A stretch of DNA of 64,000 bases from Hormiphora californensis (Eukaryota > Animalia > Ctenophora): positions 9,548,001 through 9,612,000 of the forward strand of contig CM035350.1 of assembly GCA_020137815.1 (NCBI GenBank), written 5' to 3'. Position 1 is the stretch's first letter; each line of letters opens with the position of its first letter. The notes beneath the pieces were generated by a model. The model did no database searches. It had not been told where the DNA came from and saw only the letters and a list, made by a program, of their open reading frames with translations. Below are positions 2,539 to 29,700 of this stretch, one piece after another. Made by a program: the position numbers and the translations under genes.

Positions 2539-4407
2539 ATGGTCAAAAGTACAACCTTACTTGTCTGGTAAGTAACACATTCTGATCATATCTTCTCTGA
2601 AGAGATGTCCTCTCCACCCCCCCCCCCCCGCCCGCCCGAAAGGATTTTGTTTGTTTTGCTCACACTGACCCTCCCACCAGGATTTTGTTAACGCTAGTTA
2701 GTATCCCGACGCTTCTCGTAGTGGAGAGTACGAATATAATACCAACATTGGAACAGTATAACGCCATCCAATCGGCCTCAAAAACATCTGGTTTCCTTCA
2801 ACTTGAGTGTTTATCGCGTTTGCAAAGGAAAAACGAAAAGTTTGATTACGAAAAACACGGCCCTTGTAAAATAGAAATTGAGGACGAAGAACTCATGGAG
2901 GTGAGATATTAGAAATAATGTCATGTGAGATATATTATATTGAGATCAATGTCAATAGTGCTTGGCATATTGATATCAATTCTGCAGTATAGTGCTTGGC
3001 ATACGTGCAGCTGTAGGCCCCCTGTAGCACATGCCAACTGTTGTAGTGCTGTAACTCTTCTCCCATATTATTATAGCTGACTACTGGTAAATAAGGGTTT
3101 CACTATAAATTATTCTTTATTTCAGATTCTCATGATAGACAGGGAGGAAGCAGGGAACAGTAGGAAGCAACGAGTAGTATGTAGGTGTAGGAAAGCAAAA
3201 GCAAGGCGGAAATCTGATAAGAAGAGAGCAATGCTTGATGGATTCGTGAACCCTCCTTCAACAAAGAAAAAATTAAGTAAGTTATTTGATCATTGTCAGA
3301 CATAACCAATGGTTATGCCTGACAATAATAAAATATTAACCATTTTTGTTTATCAGTTTTCTGTTGTTTCCCCAAAGTTATTATTATTATATTACACACT
3401 TTTCTTTCAGGAGCTAAATTAAAAGTCTGCAAGAGATGGCTGTGTTACACGTTTACCAATGGCCGGAAAGAGTTTAACGAAGAAGAGGCTTTTGTCATGG
3501 CTGAGGCAACCTATATCGAAGTAATTAATTTATTAGTATTTTCACCAATTGTATTATGTATAGAAATTTCACAGGATACTTATATTAGCCCTTAGTTGCC
3601 GTTTCTTTTTTCCTGAACGCTTTAGGAGGCTCCAAAACATTTGCAATTCGTGTATTAAAATTTGGTGTTTCTCAATACCACGTACTGCACATATCAGTCA
3701 TTATCACCTATCCCTTTCTCTCTCTAGTCCCTGGGCTTAGCTCTATAAACTAGATGCAGCAAAGCTTGTTTGTTTTACAGACATGATCGGCGGGGCCTTT
3801 ATCCTCTTATATTTATCAGGTAGCTGGCAACAACACAGTCTGCATGCGCTCTGTAATATCAGACAGTTTCGGTAGACTACCAGCCACAATAATATACGGG
3901 ATATTGTCTGTCGGGGCCAGCTGCGTTTCAAATTATTAGTTAACCGCTCTAAATTTTAAGCTGCTCGGTCCCCTGCAGGGTTTTAGGTAGAATTTATAAA
4001 ATATACTGATTCCCTTCAATAAAGTCGTAATTTCCTGACTAAAATTTCCGTCATAATGTCGTATACAAATTAAATTATGTCCTCAGCATATCGATATTTT
4101 TTAGGGAAAGGACAGTATTGAAGGGACATCTCTTAGTAACCTTACAAACAACGCTAGAACTTTCTTCTTATCTCAAATCGTCCCATCACGTTACGATTAA
4201 AGTTCCACAATTGAGTTTTTAACAACTAATCTCCCTCCAGGCACTGTCTGGCGTCTGGGAAGTGTGCGTGGATACACCGGACCCTGATGTCCCACCCTGT
4301 ACACTACTCTATAGTGGTGTTCAAATGAGACCTCTCCCGGAGGAGGCGCCTTTCAGAGTCACCCGATTCCGGCAAAACTCCCCACCAGCACCGACCCTTC
4401 ACGGGGG
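2539..4407 (+). CDS. Uncharacterised secreted protein (5 exons); last exon interrupted by a retroelement
   Basis: Exons 2539-2567, 2681-2900, 3126-3276, 3411-3520 and 4241-4407 have GT-AG boundaries and compatible phases. N-terminus MVKSTTLLVWILLTLVSIPTLLVVES is signal-peptide-like. No family recognised. Confidence 0.7.
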
Positions 4408-6051
4408 TCACTTATTCACTTCTCACATATCACTTATTCACTTCTCACATATCACTTTCACTTCTCACATATCACTTATTCACTTCTCACATATCACTTA
4501 TCACTTCTCACATATCACTTTCACTTCTCACATATCACTTATCACTTCTCACATATCACTTATTCACTTCTCACATATCACTTATCACTTCTCACATATC
4601 ACTTCACTTCTCACATATCACTTTTCACTTCTCACATATCACTTATCAGTTTCGTTTGAAAAGCTCGCTTCTGATAATTTTTTGATCTTCCACCGTTGTA
4701 CACGCGAACGAGCATGGCCTCCAAGTTGGATCGTGCCTTCACTATCTGGCGGAATGGCGGCCCGGGCAACAGAGCTACTACTGCTGATTACAGCCGGCTG
4801 GAGATGTCCATCGTATCTACCTTGAGACGAGTCGGTGGGTACCCTGACCCTAACAAGGAAGGTGGCACATTCGACCTGAACAAGCTGACCACCACCTATC
4901 TCTCAACTCTAGATACCAACAAGAAAGTTAGTTTTATTTCTGATATGGCGGGCTTACTTTGGTATCGTGCTCTCCCTCTCAGTCGGTTAGCTAAGAAGAA
5001 CTTGTCAGATGACATGCGATCGGTTCAGAACAGTTCTGTGTGTAGCGATGAATCAAAAGAGAAGGTAGAGAAGCTTATGGAGCATCTGGACCACACCCGA
5101 GACCGTCTTGACAGTGCTACAGATCTGTTATTAGAACGTGATTCCAAGATCATTGAACTGCAATCAGAGATCAGTGCCCTGAAAGACTCGATCATATCCA
5201 TGAAAGATACCATGCTAGAGAAGAGCGTGGCCGCTGTACAGACAGTTGTAAAGGACGAGATTCAGAATTACTCTGCTGTTCTCCAGACAGCTGCTACTGC
5301 TGTGAACCAGACCTGTGTATCTGCCCTTGCTCCCAGCAAACTACGAACAGCAATTGCCAGCGCTTCAGTTGATCGTAGTAACAACCTGATGGTGTACGGT
5401 CTGCCAGAGAGTGACCAGCTAAGCGACAGTACTTTAGTCAAGGATCTATTTGAACATTTGTCTGAAGCGCCAGTGTTATCAGAGGTGGCACGACTTGGTA
5501 GGAGAGGTGGTGAGGGAGTGCGGCCAGTGCGGGTGGTGCTGAGGAACAGAGAGATTGCTAGGACTATTTTGGGGAAATCAGCGATGCTGAAGGACTCTGA
5601 CCAGTATCAGTCAGTGTTTATTGCACCGGACAGATCAGTAGAAGAGAGAGCAGAGAGAAAAGAATTAGTTACTAAACTGAGAGAGAGAAGAGAAAATGAA
5701 CCTGATAAAGTGTGGAGGATTAGAAGAGGCTATATTGTAGAGAGTGAGACGTGAGAAGTGTTGCGAGAGATTAGAGAGATAGAGATTAATGAGTTAACTT
5801 TTTGAGATACGGATTTATTTTATGTTTTATAATTTTTTATGGTTTTCAGTTTTGTAAAGACATAGTGCGGACCAGGGTGGGGTAGCAGGTTCAAAGCACA
5901 CAAAAGACCTAACCGTCTTCGTGCTAACGACCCTGTTACGCCACCCTGAATCCTCACTCAGTTTGGTCTGTGTGGCTGGTTTGCTTCCTATTATAATATG
6001 ATTATTTCGGCGCAATGCCACTGCCAGCGGCAGTTTTGATTGATTGATTGA
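4408..6051 (+). mobile_element. ORF1-only non-autonomous non-LTR retroelement, copy A
   Basis: 5' TCACTTCTCACATA tandem array, single ORF, ~300-nt 3' UTR and (TTGA)4 tail; homologous end-to-end to 9730-11224. Confidence 0.85.
4714..5754 (+). CDS. LINE ORF1p-like protein (coiled coil + RRM + CTD), 346 aa
   Basis: ATG at 4714; heptad region followed by the motifs RSNNLMVYGLPE, RPVRVVL and VFIAPDRSVEERAERKELV typical of L1/CR1/L2-type ORF1 proteins. Confidence 0.85.
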   Translation: MASKLDRAFTIWRNGGPGNRATTADYSRLEMSIVSTLRRVGGYPDPNKEGGTFDLNKLTTTYLSTLDTNKKVSFISDMAGLLWYRALPLSRLAKKNLSDDMRSVQNSSVCSDESKEKVEKLMEHLDHTRDRLDSATDLLLERDSKIIELQSEISALKDSIISMKDTMLEKSVAAVQTVVKDEIQNYSAVLQTAATAVNQTCVSALAPSKLRTAIASASVDRSNNLMVYGLPESDQLSDSTLVKDLFEHLSEAPVLSEVARLGRRGGEGVRPVRVVLRNREIARTILGKSAMLKDSDQYQSVFIAPDRSVEERAERKELVTKLRERRENEPDKVWRIRRGYIVESET

Positions 6052-6054
6052 ATA

Positions 6055-6148
6055 TAGGTCTCCCCACCAGCACCCACCCTTCACGGGGGATGATAGAGGT
6101 AGGTCTCCCCACCAGCACCCACCCTTCACGGGGGATGATAGAGGTAGG
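6055..6148 (+). repeat. 45-bp tandem duplication of the exon end and a GAG|GTAGG donor-like site
   Basis: Two units CTCCCCACCAGCACCCACCCTTCACGGGGGATGATAGAGGTAGG; the first 30 nt match 4378-4407 with one mismatch. Confidence 0.9.
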
Positions 6149-6793
6149 CCTCGAGGTTGTTATTTTCTAACCCTTCTTTACACTTGTAAACAGGGTCGAG
6201 CAAGTCTAGTTCGAGGAGCTGTTTTTTGAACGTTTGATCTTATCTGGTTTGATTTCCGACAGTAAATAACAACACTAATTTACAGGCTGATTGGCCATGA
6301 CAGAGCCTATAAATGCAAAACTCCAAGAGAAGAAAGACAAGAAGAGACACCATAAGACGATGCCATGTGAATGAGCAGTCAAAAAGCTGATACCGAGCCG
6401 CTGAAATATAGGTGAAGAATCATAGGAAATTTATTGAAGATGGACATTGTCAGATGTTTGTTTGTCCCGCGGTGTCCACTCGTTATTACAAACTATGTGT
6501 CGCTGCGAGTTTTTATAATTTATTGCGTATTGTGCTGTAACCTATATATATAATGTGTATGGTGCTATTATTATAGTAGTATTATACCCCATAATGGTAC
6601 ACGATACACTTGTAGTTGTGTTGATACACTGTCAGAGCATTGGCCTGACCCTATCCTCATTTCGAGAACCGCGGTCAGAGCATTGGCCTGACAGTTGAAA
6701 CATGTGTTTTCATTCAACTCGATTTAGGAGATCATTGTGAGACAATTGCCAAGTTATCTAATTGCCAACTGTACAGATTTGTAGTAAATTCGC

Positions 6794-7017
6794 CCAGCCC
6801 CATTGTGTGTGGTGTGGCGACCCCAATTTGACAGTGCGCTCAGATCGGGTCGGCGGCGCCAGACAGCCCCATGTGTGCTGTATGGCGACCCCAATTTGAC
6901 AGTGCGCTCAGATCAGGTCGGCGGTGCCAGACAGCCCCATGTGTGTGGTATGGCGACCCCAATTTGACAGTGCGCTCAGATCGGGTCGGCGGCGCCAGAC
7001 AGCCCATGTGTGGTGTG
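6794..7017. repeat. ~68-bp tandem repeat, 3 copies
   Basis: TGGCGACCCCAATTTGACAGTGCGCTCAGATC(G/A)GGTCGGCGG recurs three times. Confidence 0.9.
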
Positions 7018-8158
7018 GATTTTATTGATATATACCTCTCTCTATATACGATGTTCAGAAATTATCCTGTTAAACTAAAACTGAACTTGTTTTACTTTTA
7101 AAATGAACCTGCGAAAAAGCATGATGATGTATCATTGTCAATCACAATGAAAGTTTGTGATCAGCCCGCAATGCGGGCCCCACATTGCATTTTTGGTCAA
7201 ACCCATCAAAGCATCTTCATTCCTCGTTTTGTGCCAACTAAAATCGTATACAATTCTACAACCCAGAAGAAAGAAAATAAAGATTAGCATGGCTGATGTG
7301 GTAATTTCAAGTATATAAATTGTTTTGAATTCCTTCCAAAGAAAAGACCCTAATATGACTCTTTCAATTCCGGTCCAAAATCTTGTAATCTTGTAATATT
7401 CTTCACACAGATACTGCACAGGTGTCAGTTCCTGACAGAGCCCCCCTCTCCCTGGATACAAGTGGTAACTGGTATCCAAAATGAATATCAGGATGTAACA
7501 TGTTATTCTGGTTCTTTAACATACCCGGATGTTCTTCTTCAGCCGGGAGGAGGCTCTGGAATTAATGATAAACCGGGACACGTGGATCGGTTATTGCATC
7601 AACACTCGGCCTCTCCGGCCGCCTTAGGTCAAAAAAGTGGTTCTTGTTATTTTTAATTTTTAATTTTGGTAAGTTCCTCTCTGGAACTTGTTTTCGCGTT
7701 CATTCTGAGTTCAAGAGATTTGGTGCGCTCTTGATTGTGGTTCCTTCTGGGTGTGGTTCGCTCTTGGATATGGTCTCTTCTGGATGTGGTTCGCTCTGGG
7801 ATATGGTCTCTTTTGGATGTGGTTCGCTCTTGGAGGCTCTTGGACTTTATTATGGTTCACTATCCAAAATTAAATTGCCATTCTGAGTTCTGACGGGCTG
7901 TGACGCTCTGCTTTTGCTTCTAAAACTTAAACCACCAAAAACGGGAAACATTTCTGATTTCGAAAAAAAAAACAGATTCTAAAATTCACAAATTCAAATA
8001 AGATATTTTGAAATAATGTACAGAATATGATTGTAACGCGCGAATTTTTAAAATTAAGCGATGCAAATACGCGCGCACGAACTGAACTGACCGGCGCGGT
8101 CGGATCTCGACTTTTTCAAACTTTTAAATTTTCAAATTTTTGGAAATTTCAAACTCCG

Positions 8159-8376
8159 TAAAGTCGGATTTTTTGAAACTGTCACCCCCCTGGGTATTTT
8201 CAAATTTCGTAAATGACCATAAATCCGGTTCCTGACGAGATAGAGACTTGAAATTTGGAGGTTACGAAGATCTTGCTAAGTTCTTCCGAACCTCAAGTCT
8301 CTATCTTATCAGGAACCGGAGATATGGCAAATTTTGTTATTTCAGGGGGGTGACAGTTTCAAAAAATCCGACTTTA
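8159..8376. mobile_element. MITE with TIR (TA)AAGTCGGATTTTTTGAAACTGTCACCCC; relatives at 12097-12224 and 50024-50175
   Basis: Long terminal inverted repeats flanked by TA; the same TIR is seen at three loci. Confidence 0.85.
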
Positions 8377-8411
8377 GTCCGTAATCACTTTTTTGAGGCA
8401 TTTGCAGCGTT

Positions 8412-11400
8412 ATGGGACACGTAAGGGAACTCCGAAAGGAAAATGAAGAAGACACTCAAAATGTAAGTTATTTAATTACTAATTTTGGCCGGTTTATTAC
8501 CGAAAACAGACTTATAAAGTTACCAAAATTTTAGCGTGGCGCTCTGGGAGAGACTCTTAAATCGCTTCTTTTCGTTCTTGGTACGGCGATTCTAGCTACT
8601 ATTGCTGTTCGAAACTCTGTGAACCCGTAAGTAAGGCCTATATGCCCTAAAAATTCCTTTAGTTACCGACCACCTCCTTGCCACTATCTCCATAACGGTA
8701 CGGTTCCTGATTTTTGAGGTCACATCGATATTTTGCTTTCAGACTCCTTATTCATGTTTACTGTCTAGGTACATTCACAAAATATGGGGTGCCTCTCATG
8801 ACTTTTGGGGCGAGCTCTGGAACAGGATTTACGATTTGTTCGGTCGCAACGATCACCTCGTCCACCATCTCGGATCAGCTCTCTCATATTCATCATGCTT
8901 CGTGGTGTTCAATGCTGTTTTCTTGTTATGCGACGTCACAAGGAAACCAACCTGGCTCCTGAAATACAAAGTTCAGGAAGGCAAAAACGAACCGGTAAGG
9001 AACAACTTGACTGGTCAAAGCAGTTGAGAAGAAGTGGGGAGTATATGGGGATGAGGAGAGTCCTACCATCTGTATTTAATTTAGTGGACCAGAAGAAGTT
9101 GTGGAGCTGTATCAGAACTTCTGCGTTTAATTTATTAGTAGTCAGTCCAGTGGTTACACTTGTTCTCTACCCTATGGCTCTGGCCCTGGGTTCTTACCAC
9201 AAGGGCCAGTTACCAACATTCGAACGACTGCTTGTGGAATTTGTTGTTTTTACTTTGGTTGAAGAAGTGATGTTTTATTACAGCCACAGGTAACTTGTTT
9301 AGGTGTTCCATGGGAACCGGGCAGTTATTATTAACTATGGTTGCGCCTAGTTCGAACTTCACGAATTAAAATACCCCATAGGGATTAGGGGTTGATGTAC
9401 CCGTCCAAGGTAACTCCAATAACCATTATGATTTGTCTCTACAGGTTGCTCCACTCGCCCCGGTTCTATGCCAAGTACCACAAGAAGCATCACGAATGGA
9501 CTGCCCCCATTGGTATTACTTCTATCTACTGCACACCACTAGAAATGGTCTGCTCCAATATATTGCCTTCCATTATGGGACCTATGATAATGCAGTCACA
9601 CATCTTCGTTACATGGCTCTGGTTAGTTACACAGTTACACAGCTATAACACAGTTACCAGTTACACAGTTACACAGTTGTCATGAAAACAATACACAGTT
9701 ACACAGCTATAACACAGTTACCACAGTTATCACTTCTCACATATCACTTATCACTTCTCACATATCACTTTCACTTCTCACATATCACTTATCAGTATCG
9801 TTTGAAAAAGCTCGCTCCTGATAGTTGTTTGATCTTGCACCGTTGTACACAAGTACGTACATGGCCATGAATTCCAAGTTGGATCGTGCCTTCACTACCT
9901 GGCAGCTGGGGTGCCCGGGTGACCGTGCTATCTCTGCTGATTACAGTCGGCTGGAGTCGTCAATTATATCTACATTGAGACGAGTCGCTGGGTACCCTGA
10001 CCCTAACAAGGAAGGTGGCACGTTTGACCCGAACAAGCTGACCACCACCTATCTCTCAACTCTGGATACCAACAAGAAGGTCAAGTTTATTTCTGATATG
10101 GCGGGTTTGCTTTGGTATCGTGCTCTCCCTCTCAGTCGGTTAGCTAAGAAGAACTTGTTATCAGATGATACGAGGTCTCACAACAGTTCTGTGTGCAGCA
10201 ATGAATCGAAAGAAAAGGTAGAGAAGCTCATGGAGCATCTTGACCACACCCGTGACCGTCTTGATAGTGCTACAGCTGTATTACTAGAACGTGATTCCAA
10301 GGTCATTGAACTGCAATCAGAGATCAGTGCCTTGAAAGACTCTATCATATCCATGAAGGACACCATGCTAGAGAAGAGTGTGACTGCTGTACAGACAGTT
10401 GTTAAAGACGAGATCCAGAACTACTCTGCTGTTCTCCAGACAGCTGCTACTGCTGTGAACCAGACCTGTGTATCTGCCCTTGCTCCCAGCAAACTCCGAA
10501 CAGCAATTGCCAGTGCTTCAGTTGACCGTAGCAGTAACCTAATTGTGTATGGCTTGTGTGAGGATGAGAGGAGCAGTGACAGTGACAAGGTGAAGGAGCT
10601 GTTCGAGCATCTTGTGGAAGCACCAGTTCTTTCGAAGGTTGAGAGGCTGGGGAGGAGCAGGGAGGAGCGTGCACGGCCGGTGAAAGTGGTTTTGAGGAGC
10701 AGTGAGAGTGTCAGGGCTCTCCTGGGCAAGGCATCACGGCTGAAAGAGTCAGAAACTTTCCGTTCAGTGTATGTGGCTCCTGATAGAACTTTAGAGGAGA
10801 GAGTAGAGAGGAGATTATTAGTAGCTAACTTGAGAGAGAGGAGAGAATCAGAGCCAGAGAAAGTGTGGGTTATTAGACAGGGATCGGTTGTGGGAACTGC
10901 GAAAACTGAGAGTGATTCTGATGTGTGAGAAGTCAGAGTTGAGAGAGTGAGAAATTAGAGATTTTAACATTCTTCATCCTTCTGCCCGTATATTCACAAT
11001 TCACATCCTATCGTTTTTGAAACCGTTTCTTGTAAGGACATGGTGAGGGCCAGGGTGGGGTAGCGGGGTCAACGCACACAAAAGTCCTTACCCGACTTCG
11101 TGCAATTGATCTCGTTACGCCACTCTGAACCCTCACCCAGTTTGGTCCGTGTGGTTCAGTTTTCATGATATTATATGTTTAATTGCGGCTCAGTGCCACT
11201 ACCCACCGTGGTAGCTTTGATTGACCAGTTACACAGTTACACAGTTGTCAGTTACGCAGTTACAGTTAGTAGTTACACAGTTACATAGCTACACAGTTGC
11301 ATGCATCGTCCCCGGTTTTACTTCTCACTCGCCCTAGGTATGCTCTGGTTATATTCTCTACAACGCTAGCTCACGGAGGTTATCATGTACCCTTCCTCTT

Positions 11401-11884
11401 CTCCCCTGAAGCACATGACTACCACCACAAAACGTGAGATACCAAATGAGATAACTGTCGCCCCATTTTAATATCGTTCTAACTTTCTCCGTGGTTTGAT
11501 AAAGCTGGCACATATTTATCGCATGACATTTAGAATTAGGAACCGGACGTTTTATCCAAACCGGTCCAAACCGGTTCGAACAGTGAAATACTCAACCGAA
11601 AAACGCGAAACTAGGAAACATGTCGGTTCAGTTATGACCGGTTTGGACCGGTTTGGATAAAACGCCCGGTTCCTATTTCAAATCTAATTACCCCTGACAT
11701 CAGGTTTAATTGTTGGTTTGGCACCGTTGGTATTCTTGATAAACTTCACAAAACTGATAAACCTTTCTGTGGAAGTATCCATGAAGTCCGACACTATGTT
11801 TCCTTCAGCCTGACCCCTGTTAAGGAGCTTCATCCTGACCCCAAGGATCGTCTTGCTACTGCCTCGTGCACCAAAGTAGAGTGA
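8412..11884 (+). CDS. FAXDC2: Fatty acid hydroxylase domain-containing protein 2 (sterol desaturase family)
   Basis: 7 exons (8412-8462, 8535-8626, 8770-8994, ~9084-9289, 9445-9621, 11338-11433, 11704-11884). His boxes FYYSHRLLH, YHKKHHEWTAP and HDYHH, plus KYKVQEGKNEPVD. One acceptor needs a 1-nt correction. Confidence 0.9.
9730..11224 (+). mobile_element. ORF1-only non-autonomous non-LTR retroelement, copy B, in a FAXDC2 intron
   Basis: Same 5' repeat, ORF, 3' structure and TTGATTGA end as copy A; embedded in an intronic (CAGTTACA)n tract. Confidence 0.85.
9861..10928 (+). CDS. LINE ORF1p-like protein, 355 aa
   Basis: ATG at 9861; paralog of 4714-5754; motifs NLIVYGL, RPVKVVL, VYVAPDRTLEERVERR. 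Confidence 0.85.
   Translation: MAMNSKLDRAFTTWQLGCPGDRAISADYSRLESSIISTLRRVAGYPDPNKEGGTFDPNKLTTTYLSTLDTNKKVKFISDMAGLLWYRALPLSRLAKKNLLSDDTRSHNSSVCSNESKEKVEKLMEHLDHTRDRLDSATAVLLERDSKVIELQSEISALKDSIISMKDTMLEKSVTAVQTVVKDEIQNYSAVLQTAATAVNQTCVSALAPSKLRTAIASASVDRSSNLIVYGLCEDERSSDSDKVKELFEHLVEAPVLSKVERLGRSREERARPVKVVLRSSESVRALLGKASRLKESETFRSVYVAPDRTLEERVERRLLVANLRERRESEPEKVWVIRQGSVVGTAKTESDSDV
11537..11675. mobile_element. Small hAT-like MITE in a FAXDC2 intron
   Basis: TIR TAGGAACCGG(A/G)CGTTTTATCCAAACCGGTCCAAACCGGT; degenerate 8-bp flanks TTTAGAAT/TTTCAAAT. Confidence 0.8.
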
Positions 11885-12338
11885 GAGTATGAGAGGTTGG
11901 AAAGTTTTAAAATGAGACGTTTTGTGGAAATGTTTAAATGGAGATTATGTTTTGTAATAGATAACTTTATTCCGATATGCTTTATCATGTTTAAATGTTT
12001 ATACTTTATACGCTTTTGATAATATATGTGATATATGTGTGTACAAATTGTTGTTATGATTTATGATAAATTTTCTTTATGAATCGGCTGTTTATGAAGT
12101 TGGATTTTTTTGAAGATGTCACCCTCCCCCTTCTTCTCGTTCGCTCGTTTTTGTGTGCCTATCAAAAGTTGATGGATATCACATGCGCATGAATTTGGGG
12201 TGACGACTTCAAAAAATCAGACTTAACTCGTCAACTTTCATCTTATACTTAGGTACCACAGACGTTTTACTTTTACTAATTGACTAGGTCATAGAATAAC
12301 GAACCATTTTATAGGGTGTAAAATTCGGCAGACTATCC

Positions 12339-15300
12339 ATGGTTAAAAATCATCAAAATGACTCTTCGATTGGTGATGCTGTCGCCGCTATCGATCATAT
12401 TTGTGCCTCGTCTCTACAACTAACGAAGAACCCTCTTGCTATACGTGATCTCGCACAAGATGTCAGTCTCTGGAGCAAGTTACGAGAGTGCCTCTTATTT
12501 GGCGATCCAAGCATCAGGAAGAGAGCGACATTTATCACAAATCTTCTGATATCCCACGATTCGGAGTTAAAAGATACGCTATCTGATGTTGTTTTGGTTT
12601 TGGAAACACTCGAAGAAACTCAAAGTCACATCATTCGTCCTGTGCTAAGTAAAATACACGGTATACATGACGGCTGTGTCAAGGGATCCATCGAGTTGTG
12701 TTGGCTACACGTCATATTCGAGCGATTTCTCAGTCAGGAATCTAAAATGATATCTCGCTGGGGCATGCAATTGTTATTGGACCTCCCTGTTTCCATATTT
12801 CTATCTCCTGAGGGAACTACAATTATTGCAGATCTCCTAAAGCGACATATTTCAAAGACGTACCTGTTTTACAGACCAGCTTTCCAGGAACCGGGTAGCA
12901 CTCCCCCCGTGGCTCAGCTCCTACTGAAGTTCTTCAGGGAATATTTTAGTCAGGTTTCTGATGGGAGTCATCTATTTGGGACAATTCTGGAATTGTTGTC
13001 TTCAACTAAATTGGGATTTATTCCCCTGACCATGATTTCACATGCGATGAAAGAGCAGCAGCTGGGGTTTGTTTTAACATCTGATCATGTTTCAATCCTG
13101 TGCACTGTGTTTTCTTCAACGTTGGCTACAAAACCATCAGATGTCAGACAGTATGTAAAGGAGTGTCTACTGGCCATGGTGGCTGCAAATCTCACCCAAC
13201 ACTGCAGTGAAAAGGCAATTGACCTCATTCTTCCCCTTCTCGATCTCTCTCCCGATGTTACACCAAAACTTGACACAAACACGTTTACCATTTCCCGTGC
13301 CAAACTGCGTACAGAGCTGCAAAAGTTGGCGGAGAATCCATTCCGGACAGGTGGGATTTCCAGTCTGCAGGAAACGACCGAACCGGGTTTTTTTCCACCG
13401 AACCGAACCGAACCGAATTTGAAAAACTTTTTTACCGAACCGAACCGAACCGAACCGAACCGAATTTCGGTAACCGAACCGAACCGAACCATACAAAACT
13501 TTTTCTATATAAATGTTTCTCTAAAAAGTCATGGAGAGCACCGATCAAGGTATTGAGAATCATTCTCTGAAATTTTGTTAAAAAATGTTTGAAAAAATTT
13601 CAAAGTCAATTTTGTGAAAAAATTTTCAAAGTCAATTTTATCGTAAATTTTCTATGTCAATTTTTGCGTACGAATCGTGTTTCGAATCGGCAATGCTATA
13701 CGGGAATGGTATTGCTAATTAGCAGGATTAAACGAACCATGAATCGTGTCTCTCTAAATTTCCTAATTAGATTTGATGGGGATCACGTATCAGCACAATC
13801 CATCTCGGACCCACTAATTACCAACATCACTCCCGTTTAGCATTGTCGATTAGAAACACGATTCGTATACCATAATTTACTTAAAATATTTTTCACAAAA
13901 AAATTTCACAAAATTTCAGGTAATGATTCTCAATACCTTGATCGATGCTCTCCATGAATTTTTAGAGAAACATTTAATTTTGTGAAAAAACTTTGTAAAA
14001 TATTTCAAAGTCAATTTCGGAAAAAAAATTCTATGTCAACTTTGCCGTACGAATCGTGTTGCGAATCGGTGATGCTATGCGGTAGTGCTCTCGCTAATTA
14101 GCAGGATTTATTGAAACATGAATCGTTTCCCCTAAACTTCCTAATTAGATTTGATGGGGGATCACGTATCAGCATAATCCATCTCGGACCCACTAATTAG
14201 CAACATCACTCCCGCTTAGCAATACCGATTCGAAACACGATTCGTACGCAAAAATTGACATAGAAAATTTTCCATAAAATTGACTTTGAAATATTTTCCA
14301 AACTTTTTTTACAAAATTTCAGAGAATGATTCTTAACACCTTGATCGGTGCTCTCCATGAATTTTTTGAAAAAAAAAGTTTCTGAATTTGTTGACGCTCT
14401 CATGAGGACACGATTCGACGGGAAGTCAGGTATCAAATCAATCCATATCGAACCCGCTAACTAGCGAAATCATTTCCACATAGCACCACCGATTCGAAAT
14501 AGGGTTAATACGGCGAAATTGACATTGAAATCCATACAATTTTCGTGAAATAATTGAAAAATTTTGCATGAAAAAGCCCGATTTCTGGGCATTTTTTGAC
14601 CAAAAAATTCGGTGGTTCGGCCAAAATTTCCTACCGAACCGAACCGAACCGAACCGCCCAAAAAACACCGAATTTCCGAACCGAACCGAACCGAACCGAA
14701 TATTCGGTCGCTTCCTGCCAGTCTGCTTAACTCACTACCGTGGAGTGGGGAACAGTATAAGGAATACTGTGGGATGGTCGCTGAGCCTCTTCGAACTTGT
14801 GCAACCAATGTTTACATGCCGATAGAAACTGTAGTTGGGCACGCTCTTGTCCTAAACCAGCTATTCGAATTAGACGAGGTACCAGGTAAAGAGGAGGTGG
14901 TAGAGAATTTGAAGGTGGTGTTAGGTCGTGTAGCTGAAACATCGGAGACATACAATAAGCAGTTTATGGATGTGCTGACTCAGCTTTTATTCACACTCGG
15001 AGTGAAAGATAACTGTATCACTGACTGGTTTCCTCTTCCAGTTAGAGATATTTCGGAGCAGTATATCCTGCGTCAGCTTGGTCCGATGGTTAAGAACTAT
15101 GTGGTTACTAAAATTGATGGGATTGTCATGTTATGGGTCGGGAAACATCTTACCTCCCCTGATCTACCTCTATTGGAAAGCGCCTGGTTGTTACTTGAGA
15201 ATTGTGGGGACGATCATTTGATGTGTTTACCAGACCAACTCCATTCCTGGCTTCTCGATGCCATGGACAGAATCAGGGATGCTTCAGTAATGGAGACCCT

Positions 15301-17185
15301 CTTCAAATTGTCCTGTCGGACATTCAAGGAAGACAACCTTGAGGGCACCCTGAGGGCAATGTGGACAGTTCTCCAGGATGCCATGAATACAGCTCGGTTT
15401 TGGGTGTTGTTGCGACCTTTCTGTGATGTCCTTGTTCAGTCGATGTGGTCTGAGGACGTGTTTGAGTCTATAACACGAGGTTGGATCGAGAAGTTGTTAG
15501 GACATGGCCAACACCAAAGGATTCCGTATACACAACACTCGTAGCTTCTCTATCAACTCTTGGAGAGTTTCATGAGGCCTGCATCGATTTGTTTGTTCGT
15601 CTCTCAGTCTTTGGAGGTGTTAGGTCCCGGGAAAAGAAGAACAGGGAAGATTTGCAAGATTTCCTTGGTTCTAGTTCGTACCAGGAGAGAGTGTGTGCTA
15701 GCAGAATTAGAATAATTGCATGTATTAATCAGTGCTTAAAGAGTAAACCCAGCTTTGCATCTTTAATCCTGGAACGGTACTTGAAAGAGTTCTTCAGCTT
15801 TGAGAGACCCGCTCTCATGAACTCTGTTCCCAACAGAATCCGAATTAGGATTTGGCAAAGCCTTCTTTGTCTCTTACCGACCTTGGTGGAATCGCTCCCG
15901 ACCGATGAAGTTTTCGAGAAGATTATGAGCTGCTTTGACCGCGATAGCCAGCCCTCTGTGCGATGTTTTATTGAGTGTGGTATTGGCATCATCCTGGAGA
16001 TAAATCCAACATTGGTTGAAAAACTATACAGCGATTTGGAAGAATTTGACACACCCCATTCCAACGCATACATTACAGCAGTGCAGTCAATTATTGCTCA
16101 CTTCTTACATTCTCTCCACCTCAAGGGGACCCTAACCCAGATGATGCTAAACAGGGGTCTGGAGAAAGTGATCGTTTGGACATCGGCCAATAATCACAAT
16201 ATCCGGACATTTGCAGGCGCAGCAGTTCTCAGAATCACCAACCTTTACAAGGAACAAGGGTGGGAGGTACCGAGGGAGTTTTTACATCAAATCCGGTTCA
16301 TTTCAACCTTATCTGACTACCAGAAAACCTACGCTAAGTTGTTGAAGTTTAACAAGTACTTTTCTGAGTTTAACAACTCCACCCACCTTGACCCTCTTCA
16401 ACATATTCGCGGGGTTACCCTCACTATATGGTGTCCTGGAGGATGAAATTCCTCCGGGAGGGGGAGTGTCCTAGGAGTGTAGACCTAGCGATCCCTGTGG
16501 ATGGACCCCGGGTCACAGGGTTAGCTGCGGGTTGTGGTGGCCAGGAGGCTGGATACCTAATTTCCTGGAAGGATGTGTTGGTTGAGGCCGGGGCAGGGGA
16601 TTCACTCCAGAAGAAAATCACCCCTTGGCAACTCATGGCATCCTCCCTGGATTTGAAATGTAAACGATCCAGCCATGGAGAGTTAGTTGTATTTGCCTCA
16701 TTTGTTGATAAACCAACTAACCTGGGTGGCCTATCACGAACCTCAGAGATATTTGGAGTACGGACTCTAGTCGTGAATAGCTTGGAAATCCTTAACAACA
16801 AGGAATTCAAATCGCTAAGCCTCACCTCAGAAAAGTGGTTGGAGATTCAGGAGGTTCCTCGAGATTTGGAGTCCGTGACAGCCTATCTGAAGCACGCCTA
16901 AGGAGGTGGAAGGGTATACCATTGTCGGCATTGAACAGGCTACGAACAGTGTCCCTTTACAGAGGTTCAAATTTCCCTACTCGGTCCATTCTCGTCCTGG
17001 GCAGGGAGAAAGATGGGGTTCCCGCTCCCGTTCTGGACCTTTTTGATGTATGTGTAGAGATACCCCAAACGGGGGTCATCAGGAGTCTAAATGTTCACGT
17101 AACTGGGTCTATTGCAGTGTGGGAGTACACTCGACAAGTCCTGGAGTCTGGTGGAGAGGTCATGGATCTCCAGAAGGGTGCTTAA
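12339..17185 (+). CDS. TARBP1: tRNA Gm18 2'-O-methyltransferase (TARBP1/Trm3); interrupted by an insertion and 3 frameshifts
   Basis: ORFs 12339, 14612, 15481, 16428 and 16835 chain together. N-terminal LETLEETQSHIIRPVL; SpoU motifs ASFVDKPTNLGGLSRTSEIFG, LVLGREKDGVP and CVEIPQTGVIRSLNVHVTGSIAVWEY. Confidence 0.9.
13368..14717. mobile_element. Non-autonomous hAT-like DNA transposon (1350 bp)
   Basis: TIRs CAGGAA(A/G)CGACCGAA; exact 8-bp TSD CCAGTCTG (13360-13367 and 14718-14725); subterminal (CCGAA)n; internal inverted repeats. Confidence 0.93.
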
Positions 17186-23706: not shown

Positions 23707-26700
23707 GACAGACAGACAGAACCTCAGTAGTGTACGTACTGTGCGATGTAGATGTAAATGTAGAAGCTCTCGTAGTATTGGGAAGGGAAGACTGAGGCTG
23801 TAAATGTGTCCATTAGGATTACAAACATACTCGGCAAGTAAACCCTGTGTGGGAGATTAACATATTGGATGGTTACCTTCTAGAGTTTACTGGCTGGCGG
23901 CACGGACCCGATCTGAACGAGAATCAAAACGGGGTCTGGCAGATCTAACAAAACATTTAATGAGACTCAGTTAGAGTACTTCTGGGACCTACCAGATGTT
24001 AAGACCAAATATCATGAGATAGTAGGCGCCCTCTCTCGACACATCCGCATACATCTTCTTATAGTTTGTATGGGCACTTTGTAGGGTGAGAAGGGATATC
24101 AGGACCAGTACGGTCATTATATGAGCCTGACAGATAAACACCCCTGCTTTTCGTGATCCAGAGAGATCTGAAACAAGTAAACAACCAATCAGAACTCGTT
24201 ATTTAGGTCACGTGACTGGTTATCAGCCAATCAGGGACCAGTAATATTTCCTGATTCGGTCACCCCTGCTTTTCGTGATCCAGAGAGATCTGGAGAGATC
24301 AGGGGGTTAAGGAAATAAGATATCTGGGTAGAATACATGAAAGAACACATTGAAATTTCTAGGTATGCCTCCCAACCTATTTCTGATAAAGTGCCCGCTT
24401 CCACTGCGTCTGCTTCGTGTGGCGCTGTTTTGATGACGCACCATCCCAGTTTAGAGTCAAAACACAGGGAGCTTCTATCTGACTCGTGGAGAACGTCCGT
24501 CTTGCTACTTTCATAAAACTTAGTGTACAATATATCAACTGGAAATGGGGGATAGTTAGAACTAGGTGTACAATATATCAACTGGAAATGGGGGATGGTT
24601 AGAACTTGGTGTACAATATATCAACTGGAAATGGGGGATAGTTAGAACTAGGTGTACAATATATCAACTGGAAATGGGGGATAGTAAGAACTAGGTGTAC
24701 AATATATCAACTGGAAATGGGGGATAGTTAGAACTTGGTGTACAATATATCAACTGGAAATGGGGGATGGTTAGAACTAGGTGTACAATATATCAACTGG
24801 AAATGGGGGATGGTTAGAACTTGGTGTACAATATATCAACTGGAAATGGGGGGATGGTTAGAACTTGGTGTACAATATATCAACTGGAAAATGGGGGATG
24901 GTTAGAACTAGGTGTACAATATATCAACTGGAAATGGGGGATGGGGGTTTTGAAATTGGGGGGTACAATAATCAAAAAAATGGAAAAGGGGGGGAAATTT
25001 GAACTTGGGGTCCAAATTCAAAAGGAAATGGGGGTGGTTTTTAAATTTGGGGTTTCCAAAATACCAAAGGGGGAAAAGGGGGGTGGTTTTGAACTTGGTT
25101 TTTACCCAAAATATCAACGGAAAAAGGGGGGGGTTAGAACTTGGTGTAAAAATTATCAAATGGAAATGGGGGGGGGTTTTGAAAACTTTGGGGACCCAAA
25201 ATATCAACGGAAAAAAGGGGATGGTTTGAACTTGGGGGTTCCCAAAATTCAAATGGAAAAGGGGGGGTGGTTAGTAGAAATTGGGTTTTTACAATATATC
25301 AACTGGAAATGGGGGGGGGTGGTTAGAACTGGTGTCCAATTACAAATGGAAAAGGGGGGGTGTTTGAAATGGTTTTACCCTATATCAAATGGAAAGGGGG
25401 GAATTAGTTTGGAAAATTGGTGTAAATATATAAAATGGAAATGGGGGATGGTTTAGAATGGGGCAAAATTTTCAAGGGGAAAAGGGGGATAGTTTTGAAA
25501 TTGGTTTTAAAAATATATCAACTGGGAAAAGGGGGGGGTTAGAACTTGGTGTCCCAAAATATCAAGGAAAAAAGGGGGAATTTTTTGAAACCCAGGTTTT
25601 TTACAATAATCAAATGGAAAAAGGGGGAGGGGTTGAACCTTTGGGGACAAATATCAAATGGAAAGGGGGGTATTAGAATTGGTTTACCAAAATTTTCAAT
25701 GGAAAGGGGGATGGTTTAAAAACTTTGGGACAATAACAAAATGGAAAAGGGGGGGGGTTTTGAACTTGGTGTACCCAAAATACAACGGAAAGGGGGGGTA
25801 GTTAGAACTTGGTGTACAATATATTTTAAATGGAAAAGGGGGATGGTTTTTGAACTAGAGGGCAGTTTGGGGTTACCGTATATCAACTGGGGAAAGGGAA
25901 AAGGGGGAAATTGGGGGGGGGGGGGGGGGGCCAAAACCATTTTTTGTATGTTTGACGGAAAAAAAAAAGATTGCCACAAAAAAAAAAAAATACAAAAAAA
26001 AAAACAAAAAAGTACAAAAAAAAACAAAAAAATACAAAAAAAAATTAAAAAAAAGTTTTTAAGGGATTTACCAATTTTTGTTCGAAAATTTTTTCTGTTT
26101 TCCACCTATTTTACGCAAATTTTGCACAAAATATATACATATTTTACAAAAATGTAAGGGGATGCCCCAAAAACGCGGAGGGAAAAAAATTTTTCCCAAT
26201 CGCAATTTTTTACCCCGGGAAAAAAAGGAGGTCGGTTTGAACTTGACCGAATTTTGGGCAGGTCAATTTAGGGGAGGGCTGATTTAGGGGAGGTCTGAAT
26301 ACTAAGGGATGTGAAGGTTTATTCGGGTAAGGGTTTTTAGCGGAGGAGACGATAAGAGATAGGAAAGTGATTGGGGAAGAAAAGGAGGGTTCCCCCAAAA
26401 GATCCCTTTTTTTGGCTTTTTTTGGGGGACATTGTTCCGGGAAATTAGAGCCCCATACAATGGGAAAACTTTCTGAGTGGTGATAGGTATATGGGTGGAA
26501 AACGAAAAGAAACTTTTCCCCCCAATTTGTATCTCCTCTCTCTAATGATTGGCTTCCCCCAATAGGGGCTATAATCTCGTTTTCGTTCACACAGCTTTAA
26601 AAAGCTCCCCCGGGGCCCCGAATAAAATTTCCCGGGTTTTGTAAATTTGGGCCCGCCCTAAAAGACCTGCCCTAAAAACGACGGGGGCCAAAAACCCGAC

Positions 26701-29700
26701 CCCACCCAAATTCAGAATGCCCCCAATTCGCCCTGCCCTAAATTCAAATCGGGGTTCTCCCCAACCCGGAAAACCGGACCTAATGCAGGGAGGCGAGTGG
26801 GGAAGGGGCCCCTAACCAAACCCCGCCGACCCAAAAAATTTCAATATTTTCTTTTTTTTAAAAAGTGTAGGGAAATCTTTGCTTTTTAAAGGGATTTTGG
26901 TTTTTGCGCTGACAGGTAGAGTTGGGGGCTGATTTTCAAAAATAATACAAGATTTAATAATTATGAAGTTTGGGGGGAAATTGCCCATTTTTGCTGGGTT
27001 TTCTTTTCTCAAAGATTTGTTTTTCGGTGAATAAAAATTTTTTTTTCCATAGAAAAGGGGGCTTTTTAGAGGGAAGGTTCTACCCTGGAAAAAATTTTCA
27101 GTAGAAAAAACGGGGGGCCCCAGAGGGGGAAAAGGGCCCCCGGGAGCTTCGCCGATCGGGACTGGGAAAAGATCGGGGAAGGGTAGAGGGGGGAAGGGGG
27201 GGAGGGGGGGAGCGCAAAGGGAAAGGGGATCTCCTTTCTTCCGTCTCTCTTTTTTTCCCCCCCTAAAAGAAAAAAAGAGGGGAAAAAAAGAAAAGAAAGA
27301 AAAAAGAGGACCCTTTGCGAAAAGAGAGGGGGGGGTAAAAATAATAAAATAATATTTAAAGCTTGTATACCCCCAATACCCAGGGTACAGTCACAAAGGT
27401 AGGGTTTTTCCCAAAGTTGCTATCTTTAAACCCAAAGGCTTATATAGGGTGGAAAGCGATAAAAAACTTTCCCCGAAAACGTATTTTTAAACCCTCGTCT
27501 AAACCCCCTCCTGATTGGTCCCCGAAAATGTTTTCCCGGGGAGGGGGTTAGGGATGGGGAAGGAAAAAACCGATTTGAAAAAAATTTACCGAAAAGGTCT
27601 CATATCGTCTAACACCCTTTATTGGCTTTCCCCCCAATCCTGTTCATATCTTTATCGTCTCCCACCCCTAAAAAAGTTCCCCCCCAATCGCATTCACATG
27701 CTTTGACTCAGACCTGCCCTAAAAAAGACCCCCCCGCCCTAAATTTAGGGCCTTTCCCCAAATTCAGACCGGCCCCCAAAAACAGACCTGCCCTTTAAAA
27801 TTTTGGTCGAAGGTTTACCGACCTGCCCGAAAACTTTCTCGAATCGCAATTTCTTACCGAGAAAACTTTCTCGAATCGTAATTTCGAACCAAGAAATTTT
27901 TCTCGAATCGAAATTTGTAAGCTAGAAAATTTTCCCGAATCGTAATTTCTTACCGAGAAAATTTTCTCGAATCGTAATTTGGACCAAGAAATTTTTCTCG
28001 AATCGAAATTTGTAAGCGAGAAAATTTTCCCGAATCGTTAATTTCTTACCGAGAAAATTTTCTCGAATCGTAATTTCGAACCAAGAAATTTTTCTTGAAT
28101 CGACATTTCTAAGCGAGAAAATTTTTTCCGAATCGTAATTCTTACGAGAAAATTTTCTCGAATCGTAATTCGAACCAAGAAAATTTTTCTCGAATCGACA
28201 TTTCTAAGCGAGAAAAATTTTTCGAATCGCAATTTCTTACCGAGAAAATTTTCTCGAATCGTAATTTGGAACCAAGAAAATTTTTCTCGAATCGACATTT
28301 CTAAGCGAGAAAATTTTTCCGAATCGCAATTTCTTACCGAGAGAATTTTCTCGAATCGTAATTTCGAACCAAGAAAATTTTCTCGAATCGACATTTCAAA
28401 GCGAGAAAATTTTTCCAAATCGCAATTTCTAAGCGAGAGAAATTTTCCCGAATCGCAATTTCTTACCGAAAAATTTTTCTTGAATCGATATTTCTAGGAG
28501 AGAAAATTTTTCGAATCACAATTTCTTAGCGAAAATTTTTCTCTTATCGCAATTTTTTAGCGAGAAAGTTTTCTCGAATCGCAATTTCTTAGGGAGAAAG
28601 TTATCTCTAATGACAATTTCTTACCGAGAAAGTTTCTCGAATCATAACTTCTAACCGAGAAAATTTTCTCGAATCGTTATCTGAATCAATCATGTTTGCT
28701 TTTCCAAATTTCAAGAACATGTACTTTTTCATATATGTATTACATGTATAATGTAACACTTTTAGGGAATAAAATGCGTGACAATGGAACTAAAACGTTC
28801 CTAGGTGGTACATGGGCAAAAAAGGAACCCGTCTATGTATTATTTACACGTTTATCAGGCACCCATATACCCTTAAATATTTTGTATTTTTTTGTATTTT
28901 TTTGTATTTTTTGTACGGAAAAAAACAAGAATTTTGGATATTTTTTTGTATGGCCCGTACAAAAACATACAAAAAAATACAAAAAAAAATAGGTTGGAAC
29001 CCCCCCGGATAGTTAGAACTAGGTGTACAATATATCAACTGGAAATGGGGGATAGTTAGAACTAGGTGTACAATATATCAACTGGAAATGGGGGATGGTT
29101 AGAACTTGGTGTACAATATATCAACTGGAAATGGGGGATGGTTAGAACTTGGTGTACAATATATCAACTGGAAATGGGGGATGGTTAGAACTAGGTGTAC
29201 AATATATCAACTGGAAATGGGGATGGTTTAGAACTTGGTGTTACAATATATCAAACTGGAAATGGGGGATGGTTAGAACTTGGTGTACAATATATCAACT
29301 GGAAATGGGGGATAGTTAGAACTTAGGTGATACAATATATCAACTGGAAATGGGGGATGGTTAGAACTTGGTTGTACAATATATCCAACTGGAAATGGGG
29401 GATGGTTAGAATAGGTGTACAATATATCAAATGGAAAATGGGGGATGGTTAGAACTAGGTGTACAATATATCAATGGAAATGGGGGATGGTTAGAAACTT
29501 GGTGTACAATATATCAATGGAAAGGGGGATAGTTAGAACTAGGTGTACAATTATCAACTGGAAATGGGGATGATTAGAACCTTGTGTACAATATATCAAC
29601 TGGAAATGGGGGGGATAGTTAGAACTTGGTGTACCAATATATCAACTGGAAATGGGGGATGGTTAGAACTTGGTGTACAATATATCAACTGGAAATGGGG

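What the first reader, a model, noticed from the sequence alone, without database searches (positions are those of the whole stretch)
5864..6051. Covarying structured RNA in the 3' UTR of the ORF1-only element
Seen: comparing copy A (5864-6051) with copy B (11042-11224), the stems are kept by compensatory changes. AGTGCGGA/TCCTCACT vs GGTGAGGG/CCCTCACC; CAGGGTGG/CCACCCTG vs CAGGGTGG/CCACTCTG; GTAGCAGG/CCTGTTAC vs GTAGCGGG/CTCGTTAC; GCAC/GTGC; AAGAC/GTCTT vs AAGTC/GACTT; terminal CTGCC/GGCAG vs CTACC/GGTAG just before the tail. The UTR just upstream does not align. Inference: a ~95-nt long hairpin plus a 3' hairpin are under selection, probably as an RT-recruitment or packaging signal. No hammerhead or HDV core is evident.
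Basis: partly seen in the sequence, partly recalled or inferred. Interest (0 to 1): 0.78.

Follow-up and report, generated by a model that had tools for sequence, protein, structure and literature searches.

The report
Conserved RNA hairpin in comb-jelly retroelement
A jumping gene, likely from a comb jelly, that encodes only an RNA-packaging-type protein ends in a long RNA hairpin whose base pairs are kept by matched mutations, followed by a short structured tail; together these likely let it borrow a copying enzyme from a partner element that has not been found.

Summary
The structure is real. Two copies of an ORF1-only non-LTR element (ORF1 folds like L1 ORF1p; dN/dS about 0.2; closest named relatives are from Pleurobrachia) keep a 112-nt hairpin (5858-5969, z about -6.7). 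Between the copies, 6 of 45 pairs change on both sides and stay paired (1.1 expected) and 1 breaks (6.1 expected). The hairpin recurs in 3 of 28 related loci (two further lineages), where support is weaker. Its tip motif (GCACAC, 5-bp stem-loop, CG) recurs in 4 of 21 distant 3' UTRs (0.003 expected; ORF1 about 35% identical), always with the same kind of 3' end. Five other relatives end in an L2-like GGAUA tail and lack the motif; the ORF1 tree rejects a single origin for the motif group, so 3' modules were swapped or lost. The terminal hairpins are thermodynamically marginal. No Rfam match. Best reading: a two-part cis signal for trans-mobilisation by a partner LINE. The partner was not found and function is untested. 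Known kind of element (HAL1, HeT-A, Ag-Sponge) and of signal, but an undescribed RNA motif.

The parts
4408..4648 (+). Copy A 5' tandem array (21-nt unit, 11.5 copies); likely internal promoter region (inferred)
   Evidence: the same unit precedes copy B and L001
4714..5754 (+). Copy A ORF1, 346 aa: N-terminal helical domain, coiled coil, RRM, CTD; no RT or endonuclease
   Evidence: top Foldseek hits are human L1 ORF1p, E 1.4e-4; dN/dS 0.15-0.23
5755..5857 (+). Variable, unstructured part of the 3' UTR
   Evidence: z +1.3; last 60 nt unalignable with copy B
5858..5969 (+). Long hairpin: P0 5858-61/5966-69, P1 5864-71/5951-58, P2 5873-80/5941-48, P3 5882-89/5932-39, P4 5896-99/5921-24, P5 5904-08/5915-19
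5896..5921 (+). Tip motif: GCACAC, 0-4 nt, 5-bp stem-loop, CG; shared with distant families
   Evidence: 9 hits in window plus 28 loci, all on the ORF1 strand in 3' UTRs
5970..5975 (+). Invariant GTGTGG just after the hairpin; could pair with CACAC (pseudoknot) or with the terminal CCAC; unresolved
6009..6033 (+). Terminal twin hairpins: GGC-N5-GCC, A, CTGCC-loop-GGCAG
6034..6051 (+). 3' tail: TT plus (TTGA)4
   Evidence: longer in L003
9727..9794 (+). Copy B 5' tandem array
9861..10928 (+). Copy B ORF1; mosaic relative to A (dS 0.35 in the N-terminal part, 1.9 in the RRM-CTD part)
11036..11148 (+). Copy B long hairpin
11187..11224 (+). Copy B terminal twin hairpins (CACCGT loop) and short TTGA tail

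Best explanation
This is a conserved RNA structure in the 3' UTR of an ORF1-only retroelement that likely acts as a two-part signal for being copied in trans by a partner LINE's reverse transcriptase. Shown: the element has one ORF with an L1-ORF1p-like fold under purifying selection, no RT, a covarying sense-strand hairpin, a tip motif conserved across distant families, and a structured end before a (TTGA)n tail. Inferred: the element is transcribed from its 5' array and its ORF1p coats the RNA. The terminal hairpins plus tail would be read by the ORF2p of a stringent-type LINE (CR1/L2 group) to start target-primed reverse transcription. The long hairpin would hold the GCACAC tip motif out as a protein-binding site (partner ORF2p or the element's own ORF1p) for assembling the particle.
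For: A vs B: 6 compensatory pairs against 1.1 expected and 1 break against 6.1 (0 of 20,000 permutations each). Five-sequence alignment: 8 of 45 pairs change on both sides against 3.9 +/- 1.4 shuffled (1 of 500); covariation score 0.242 against 0.178 (0 of 500). One further compensatory pair, 5883 T>C with 5938 A>G, appears at the same depth (170.8) in run X15, matching one listed contig. The hairpin is 92 of 112 identical between A and B, next to a coding segment with 69% synonymous difference. All 8 sequences with this type of 3' end (A, B, L002/L014 counted as one, L003, L008, L009, L010, L016) carry the tip motif; 0 of 5 with a GGAUA-type end (L004, L015, L019, L020, L024) do. Loose ends before 6015 show other sequences sharing only the last ~35 nt, as expected of a shared RT signal. 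Stringent LINEs need a terminal stem-loop plus microsatellite tail, and R2 needs 250 nt with several hairpins (PMC5135761, passages).
Against: No autonomous partner was found. Only four lineages carry the full hairpin, and the structure was drawn from A and B. The comparison independent of that choice, L003 vs L002, is not significant (2 double changes against 1.2, P 0.35; 6 breaks against 9.1, P 0.053), and 'further pair types' equals the shuffled value (332 of 500). L002's hairpin is weak (z -1.96), and the distant tip hairpins do not fold better than shuffles (z +0.29 to -1.99). Some run variants appear to break pairs (5877 G>A, 5906 G>T, 5924 C>A; partner changes not listed, and the table is incomplete). 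The CACCGT loop is missing in A and L003. Co-occurrence of motif and tail could reflect shared descent of one block rather than one function.
Confidence: 0.55

Rival explanations
1. The terminal part serves the RT, but the long hairpin is a host-read transport signal (germline localisation or nuclear export), like the ILS stem-loop of the Drosophila I factor.
For: It is a long imperfect helix with a conserved 2-nt bulge on the 3' strand (5949-50). Egl-BicD signals are bent stem-loops with 3'-strand bulges and include the I-factor ILS (PMC13186709, passages). It is separated from the terminus by a variable spacer, and loose ends after 5975-5990 show the hairpin joined to other downstream sequence.
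Against: Five relatives with another tail type lack the motif, although all would need the same host transport. Strict sequence conservation of GCACAC is unlike the sequence-loose Egl signals. No Rfam match. Presence of Egl in the host was not tested.
Confidence: 0.2
2. The hairpin controls the RNA's fate (stability, 3' end formation, translation) or is a Dicer substrate, with no direct role in RT recruitment.
For: It is a long, GC-rich, near-continuous duplex of about 37 pairs. There is a weak generic match to mir-3151 (E 0.49, 26 bits against a gathering score of 83).
Against: The Rfam match is far below threshold and occurs on both strands. The conserved single-stranded tip motif and its link to one tail type are not explained. 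No RNA run was available to test for small RNAs.
Confidence: 0.15
3. The hairpin is a DNA inverted repeat (for example a MITE relic) whose arms are matched by gene conversion, so that the apparent covariation is not selection on RNA.
For: Reverse-complement folds are nearly as stable for three of four lineages (-52.8 vs -53.3, -48.4 vs -48.8, -41.3 vs -42.0). The window holds other inverted repeats (8161-8376, 11534-11677).
Against: 11 G-U against 2 A-C oppositions on the sense strand (partly biased because the structure was chosen on that strand). Asymmetric loops and bulges are conserved, and loops are as conserved as stems (31 of 38 vs 61 of 74). All 9 motif hits are on the ORF1 strand in 3' UTRs.
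Confidence: 0.05

Closest known systems
ORF1-present non-autonomous LINEs: HAL1 (L1-derived), HeT-A (Jockey-derived), Ag-Sponge (CR1-derived) (PMC5786205 and PMC5753468, passages; the primary papers were not seen)
   Same: One ORF1p gene, no ORF2, LINE-like 5' and 3' parts, dependence on a partner RT
   Different: Likely ctenophore host; (TTGA)n tail; a 112-nt covarying hairpin; a wide radiation with at least two exchangeable 3' modules; parent clade unknown
Stringent LINE 3' tails: eel UnaL2/UnaSINE1, zebrafish ZfL2-1/2, silkworm SART1, R2 3' UTR (PMC5135761 and PMC3747384, passages)
   Same: Terminal stem-loop directly before a short-repeat tail; compensatory changes in stems with conserved loop letters
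   Different: No GGAUA loop in A or B (it is present in five relatives). Twin small hairpins plus a separate long upstream hairpin. No Rfam match.
Type II ORF1 (coiled coil-RRM-CTD, 'transposase 22', PDB 2yko) (PMC4120745, passages)
   Same: Fold order and top structural hits
   Different: Extra ~100-aa N-terminal helical domain; 16-19% identity; no Pfam hit at threshold. The type occurs in L1, CR1, L2 and R1, so it does not fix the clade.
I-factor ILS and other Egl-BicD localisation signals (PMC13186709, passages)
   Same: Retroelement RNA stem-loop with 3'-strand bulges
   Different: Longer, in the 3' UTR rather than coding sequence, and has a strictly conserved single-stranded motif; no evidence for transport

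Membership tests
ORF1-present non-autonomous LINE (HAL1/HeT-A/Ag-Sponge kind) | Encodes a LINE ORF1p | tested here: met
   Model pLDDT 79.6; top 10 Foldseek hits are all L1 ORF1p entries
ORF1-present non-autonomous LINE (HAL1/HeT-A/Ag-Sponge kind) | No ORF2 between ORF1 and the 3' tail | tested here: met
   About 300 nt from stop to tail in both copies. An RT-type motif in an open frame occurs on the ORF1 strand in 0 of 28 loci; 1 of 28 (L018) has one on the opposite strand. Several contigs end too early to tell.
ORF1-present non-autonomous LINE (HAL1/HeT-A/Ag-Sponge kind) | Propagates as a unit (multi-copy, ORF1 under selection) | tested here: met
   Two intact copies; dN/dS 0.15-0.23; 28 homologues; 28 loci
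ORF1-present non-autonomous LINE (HAL1/HeT-A/Ag-Sponge kind) | Target-site duplication | tested here: inconclusive
   Both copies sit in minisatellites. A has a 27/28 match on both sides (4380-4407, 6062-6089) that is also a repeat unit.
ORF1-present non-autonomous LINE (HAL1/HeT-A/Ag-Sponge kind) | 3' end shared with an autonomous LINE | not testable with these tools
   No genome held; pattern and protein scans of viral and prokaryote collections were empty
HAL1 proper (L1-derived) | Derived from the L1 clade, whose RT reads a poly(A) end | tested here: not met
   The tail is (TTGA)n, not poly(A); type II ORF1 is not clade-specific
UnaL2/ZfL2-type stringent tail | Terminal stem-loop followed by short tandem repeats | tested here: met
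   stability is marginal
UnaL2/ZfL2-type stringent tail | GGAUA recognition loop | tested here: not met
   Absent in A and B; GGGATA or GGGGTA before the tail in L004, L015, L019, L020, L024
UnaL2/ZfL2-type stringent tail | Required for retrotransposition and bound by ORF2p | not testable with these tools
   needs a bench assay
Egl-BicD localisation signal | Bent stem with 3'-strand bulge and U-A pairs at two set positions | tested here: inconclusive
   A 3' AA bulge is conserved in 4 of 5 rows; pair spacing and host Egl were not examined
Self-cleaving ribozymes and other Rfam families | Match to a curated covariance model | tested here: not met
   No hit at gathering score in window 4300-11400 (8 weak hits at E up to 10) or in 10 of the 28 loci (1 weak hit)

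The most novel reading that the evidence does not exclude
Ctenophores host an old, self-standing radiation of ORF1-only retroelements (the ORF1 profile finds 246 clusters at 50% identity with E up to 1e-30; few were checked for lack of ORF2) that switch RT donors by swapping whole 3' RNA modules. One module carries a new RNA motif (GCACAC internal loop on a long helix, possibly pseudoknotted to the downstream GTGTG) that acts as a specific aptamer for ORF1p or ORF2p. That would give a natural system for asking how an ORF1-only parasite captures another element's RT.
Probability: 0.2. Interest if true: 0.7.

Novelty: new variant of a known kind. Interest (0 to 1): 0.48.

Why it matters
How ORF1-only elements capture a partner's reverse transcriptase is mostly inferred; the review passage seen says their proteins 'likely' multimerise with those of the partner (PMC5786205). 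Here there is a defined, covarying cis element, natural variants, and a natural control group of relatives with a different tail. That makes the question testable by stem mutants and tail swaps. It also adds an RNA motif missing from Rfam 15 and extends ORF1-only LINEs to what is likely the Ctenophora. The general idea of a structured LINE 3' UTR is well known, which limits the surprise.

Tried and rejected
No whole genome is held, so copy number and the partner could not be read directly. Hairpin patterns found nothing in viral contigs (its gap range only just admitted A and B) or metagenome contigs. Terminal-motif patterns found nothing in prokaryote genomes or viral contigs. ORF1 scans found nothing in viral contigs or prokaryote genomes. 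Covariance model R1 finds only its five training sequences strongly; of the distant families only L016's tip scores (9.7 bits, E 1.9), so the full hairpin is not shown outside the close group. No RNA holder was listed among 22 runs; this is no evidence on expression. Run X11 laid nothing. Summed contig depth peaks over the hairpin and terminus but is not a copy number and is not used as evidence. Pfam gave no family for ORF1. P0034 (768 aa) is an ORF1 piece joined to a glycosyltransferase-25 domain, probably a gene-prediction chimera and not an ORF1-RT fusion. The opposite-strand RT element in L018 shows no similarity to this tail; my translation of it was in the wrong frame and gave nothing. 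The CACAC:GTGTG pseudoknot and GTGG:CCAC pairing have no covariation (invariant letters) and nested-fold probability of at most 0.01 (which cannot model pseudoknots), so they are left open. L022 has a weaker look-alike of the tip that failed the motif scan. L012 was labelled GGAUA-type in the tree display by likeness to L024, but its end is interrupted; it was left out of the AU test and of the counts. Literature searches (open-licence library only) listed no description of this element or motif; Repbase and subscription papers were not searchable.

Full report
Context. The window is repeat-rich eukaryotic DNA; no genome is held. It holds two copies of one element: A (4408-6051) and B (about 9727-11224). 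Each has a 5' tandem array, a single ORF, a 3' UTR of about 300 nt and a TTGA tail. The ORF has no Pfam family at threshold. Its model (mean pLDDT 79.6, 28 sequences) shows helical domain, long coiled coil, RRM and CTD, and the top ten Foldseek hits are human L1 ORF1p entries (best E 1.4e-4). This is the type II ORF1 found in L1, CR1, L2 and R1 elements (PMC4120745, passages), so it does not fix the clade. dN/dS is 0.15-0.23 among A, B and L001. A and B are mosaic: dS is 0.35 in the first 221 codons and 1.9 in the last 124. Of 28 homologues, the three named ones are from Pleurobrachia bachei (53-85% identity), and the three best Atlas clusters are commonest in Ctenophora. The host is therefore likely a ctenophore (inference). 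The profile finds 246 clusters at 50% identity with E up to 1e-30.

Observation. All stems are present. A folds at z -4.19 and B at z -5.47; the long hairpin alone at -6.56 and -6.89, while the upstream UTR is unstructured (z +1.3, +1.4). I fixed 45 pairs from A and B (P0-P5 and two terminal stems). Between A and B, 36 pairs are the same, 6 change on both sides and stay paired, 2 become wobbles, and 1 is a mismatch in A that pairs in B. Placing the same 15 substitutions at random gives 1.1 double changes and 6.1 breaks; 0 of 20,000 permutations reached either observed value. This test is partly circular, because the structure came from these two sequences.

Independent copies. A metagenome scan returned 28 loci. 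Three carry the full hairpin and 3' end: L003, and L002/L014, which share their flank and count as one lineage. On the five rows, 92.9% of cells pair, 8 of 45 pairs change on both sides (shuffled 3.9 +/- 1.4; 1 of 500), and the covariation score is 0.242 (0.178; 0 of 500). The number of further pair types is not raised (332 of 500), one of the eight pairs is unpaired in 3 of 5 rows, and the tool warns that relatedness inflates such counts. Pairwise, B-L003 shows 5 compensations against 1.0 (P 0.00035). A-L003, A-L002 and B-L002 show fewer breaks than expected (P 0.02, 0.013, 0.0045) but no significant excess of double changes. L003-L002 is not significant on either measure (P 0.35, 0.053). In run X15, 5883 T>C and 5938 A>G share one depth value that matches a single listed contig, a further compensation; several other variants are wobble-keeping (5941, 5943, 5945, 5955), and three appear to break pairs. 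Across four lineages G-U oppositions outnumber A-C 11 to 2 on the sense strand, which favours RNA over a DNA palindrome. The hairpin is 92 of 112 identical between A and B, while the adjacent coding segment is 69% different at synonymous sites. A 3' module swap could also produce that contrast.

A deeper motif. The tip of the hairpin (GCACAC, 0-4 nt, 5-bp stem-loop, CG) occurs in 4 of 21 distant 3' UTRs (L008, L009, L010, L016; ORF1 33-35% identical) against 0.003 expected from resampled sequence. I set the spacing ranges after seeing these UTRs. Its stem varies as AAGAC/GTCTT, AAGTC/GACTT, AAAAC/GTTTT, AAAGC/GTTTT and ACGAC/GTCGT, that is, with double changes at three of five pairs. These four loci also end in a stem with a CACCGT loop, as B and L002 do. 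L008-L010 have GGT-N7-ACC in place of GGC-N5-GCC before it. Five other relatives (L004, L015, L019, L020, L024) end in AGCGGGATA or AGCGGGGTA plus a microsatellite, like the GGAUA loop described for UnaL2 (PMC5135761, passages), and none has the motif. On an ORF1 tree of 26 rows (L002, L006, L007, L018, L025, L027 and L028 left out as near-duplicates or fragments), L004 groups with the A/B clade (99/95). An AU test rejects one clade for the 8 motif-bearing rows against these 5 (p 1.35e-5; groups named before the tree). So the 3' module was exchanged or lost at least once. Against this, the distant hairpins do not fold better than shuffles, and model R1 does not detect them.

How it likely works. 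Shown: ORF1-only architecture, selection on ORF1, a sense-strand covarying hairpin, a conserved tip, and a structured end with a microsatellite tail. Inferred: an element without RT must borrow one. Stringent LINEs read a terminal stem-loop plus repeat tail, and SINEs copy that tail to be mobilised (PMC5135761, PMC3747384, passages). Loose ends before 6015 show other sequences sharing just the last ~35 nt. I take 6009-6051 as the RT-priming signal, and the long hairpin as a scaffold presenting GCACAC to ORF2p or ORF1p during particle assembly (0.55). Rivals are a host transport signal like the I-factor ILS (0.2; PMC13186709, passages), RNA-fate control or a Dicer substrate (0.15), and a DNA palindrome (0.05). 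The terminal hairpins are marginal in stability. The invariant GTGTGG at 5970-75 is unexplained.

Comparison. ORF1-present non-autonomous LINEs are known: HeT-A, HAL1 and Ag-Sponge (PMC5786205, first part of the text and passages; PMC5753468, passages; primary papers not seen). This element works like them but is not HAL1, since it has no poly(A) tail. It meets the stem-loop-plus-repeat feature of UnaL2-type tails but not the GGAUA loop. Rfam 15 has no match. A 2026 survey of vertebrate CR1-group elements does not contain the terms searched for non-autonomous elements or hairpins (PMC13343379, term search and one passage). Eight completed literature searches listed nothing on this element; Repbase was not available and may hold it. 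No supplements were read. An earlier scan note on an octopus half-LINE describes a similar arrangement; I did not test it.

Verdict. Observation confirmed with corrections; interpretation plausible but unproven; a new variant of a known kind; interest 0.48.

Noticed in passing
window 4643-4682 and 9789-9829; L001 37-70; L005/L006 5' UTR: The 5' UTR holds an inverted pair TTATCAG...CTGATA (GATA-like sites, recalled) that could form a hairpin, and recurs in distant families. CACCGT also stands just upstream of the ATG in A, B, L001 and L016, the same hexamer as the terminal loop.
   Followed up: partly
window 4714-5754 vs 9861-10928: Sharp recombination breakpoint near codon 222 (about 5385): dS 0.35 before and 1.9 after, so the RRM-CTD half is swapped between subfamilies.
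   Followed up: partly
window 4378-4407, 6055-6152, 9625-9729, 11226-11298: Both copies are inserted in minisatellites (45-bp and 8-bp units); possible target preference.
   Followed up: no
window 4714-5020: N-terminal ~100-aa helical domain of ORF1 with no match found; present only in the close family.
   Followed up: no
window 12315-16901: Host gene in several frames with a SpoU methylase domain and a weak TARBP1 hit, probably TARBP1; interrupted by ACCGA repeats.
   Followed up: no
window 47447-48097: ORF resembling the C-terminal restriction-like endonuclease region of CRE-type retroelements (recalled; no Pfam hit), next to a GC-rich inverted repeat at 47307-47437.
   Followed up: no
window 8100-8380 and 11534-11677: Long inverted repeats, MITE-like.
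   Followed up: no
window 24517-30912 and 59076-64000: Large arrays of two different 43-bp satellites, one with 113 copies and strong G skew.
   Followed up: no
L018 3324-8500 (minus strand): Long open frame with an RT motif (FADD), inserted at the end of an ORF1 element in the opposite orientation; not the partner by tail comparison.
   Followed up: partly
L013 1166-1260 and L020 1229-1400: Other ORF1-only families have different stable 3' UTR hairpins (local z -3.9 and -4.4), suggesting further module types.
   Followed up: no
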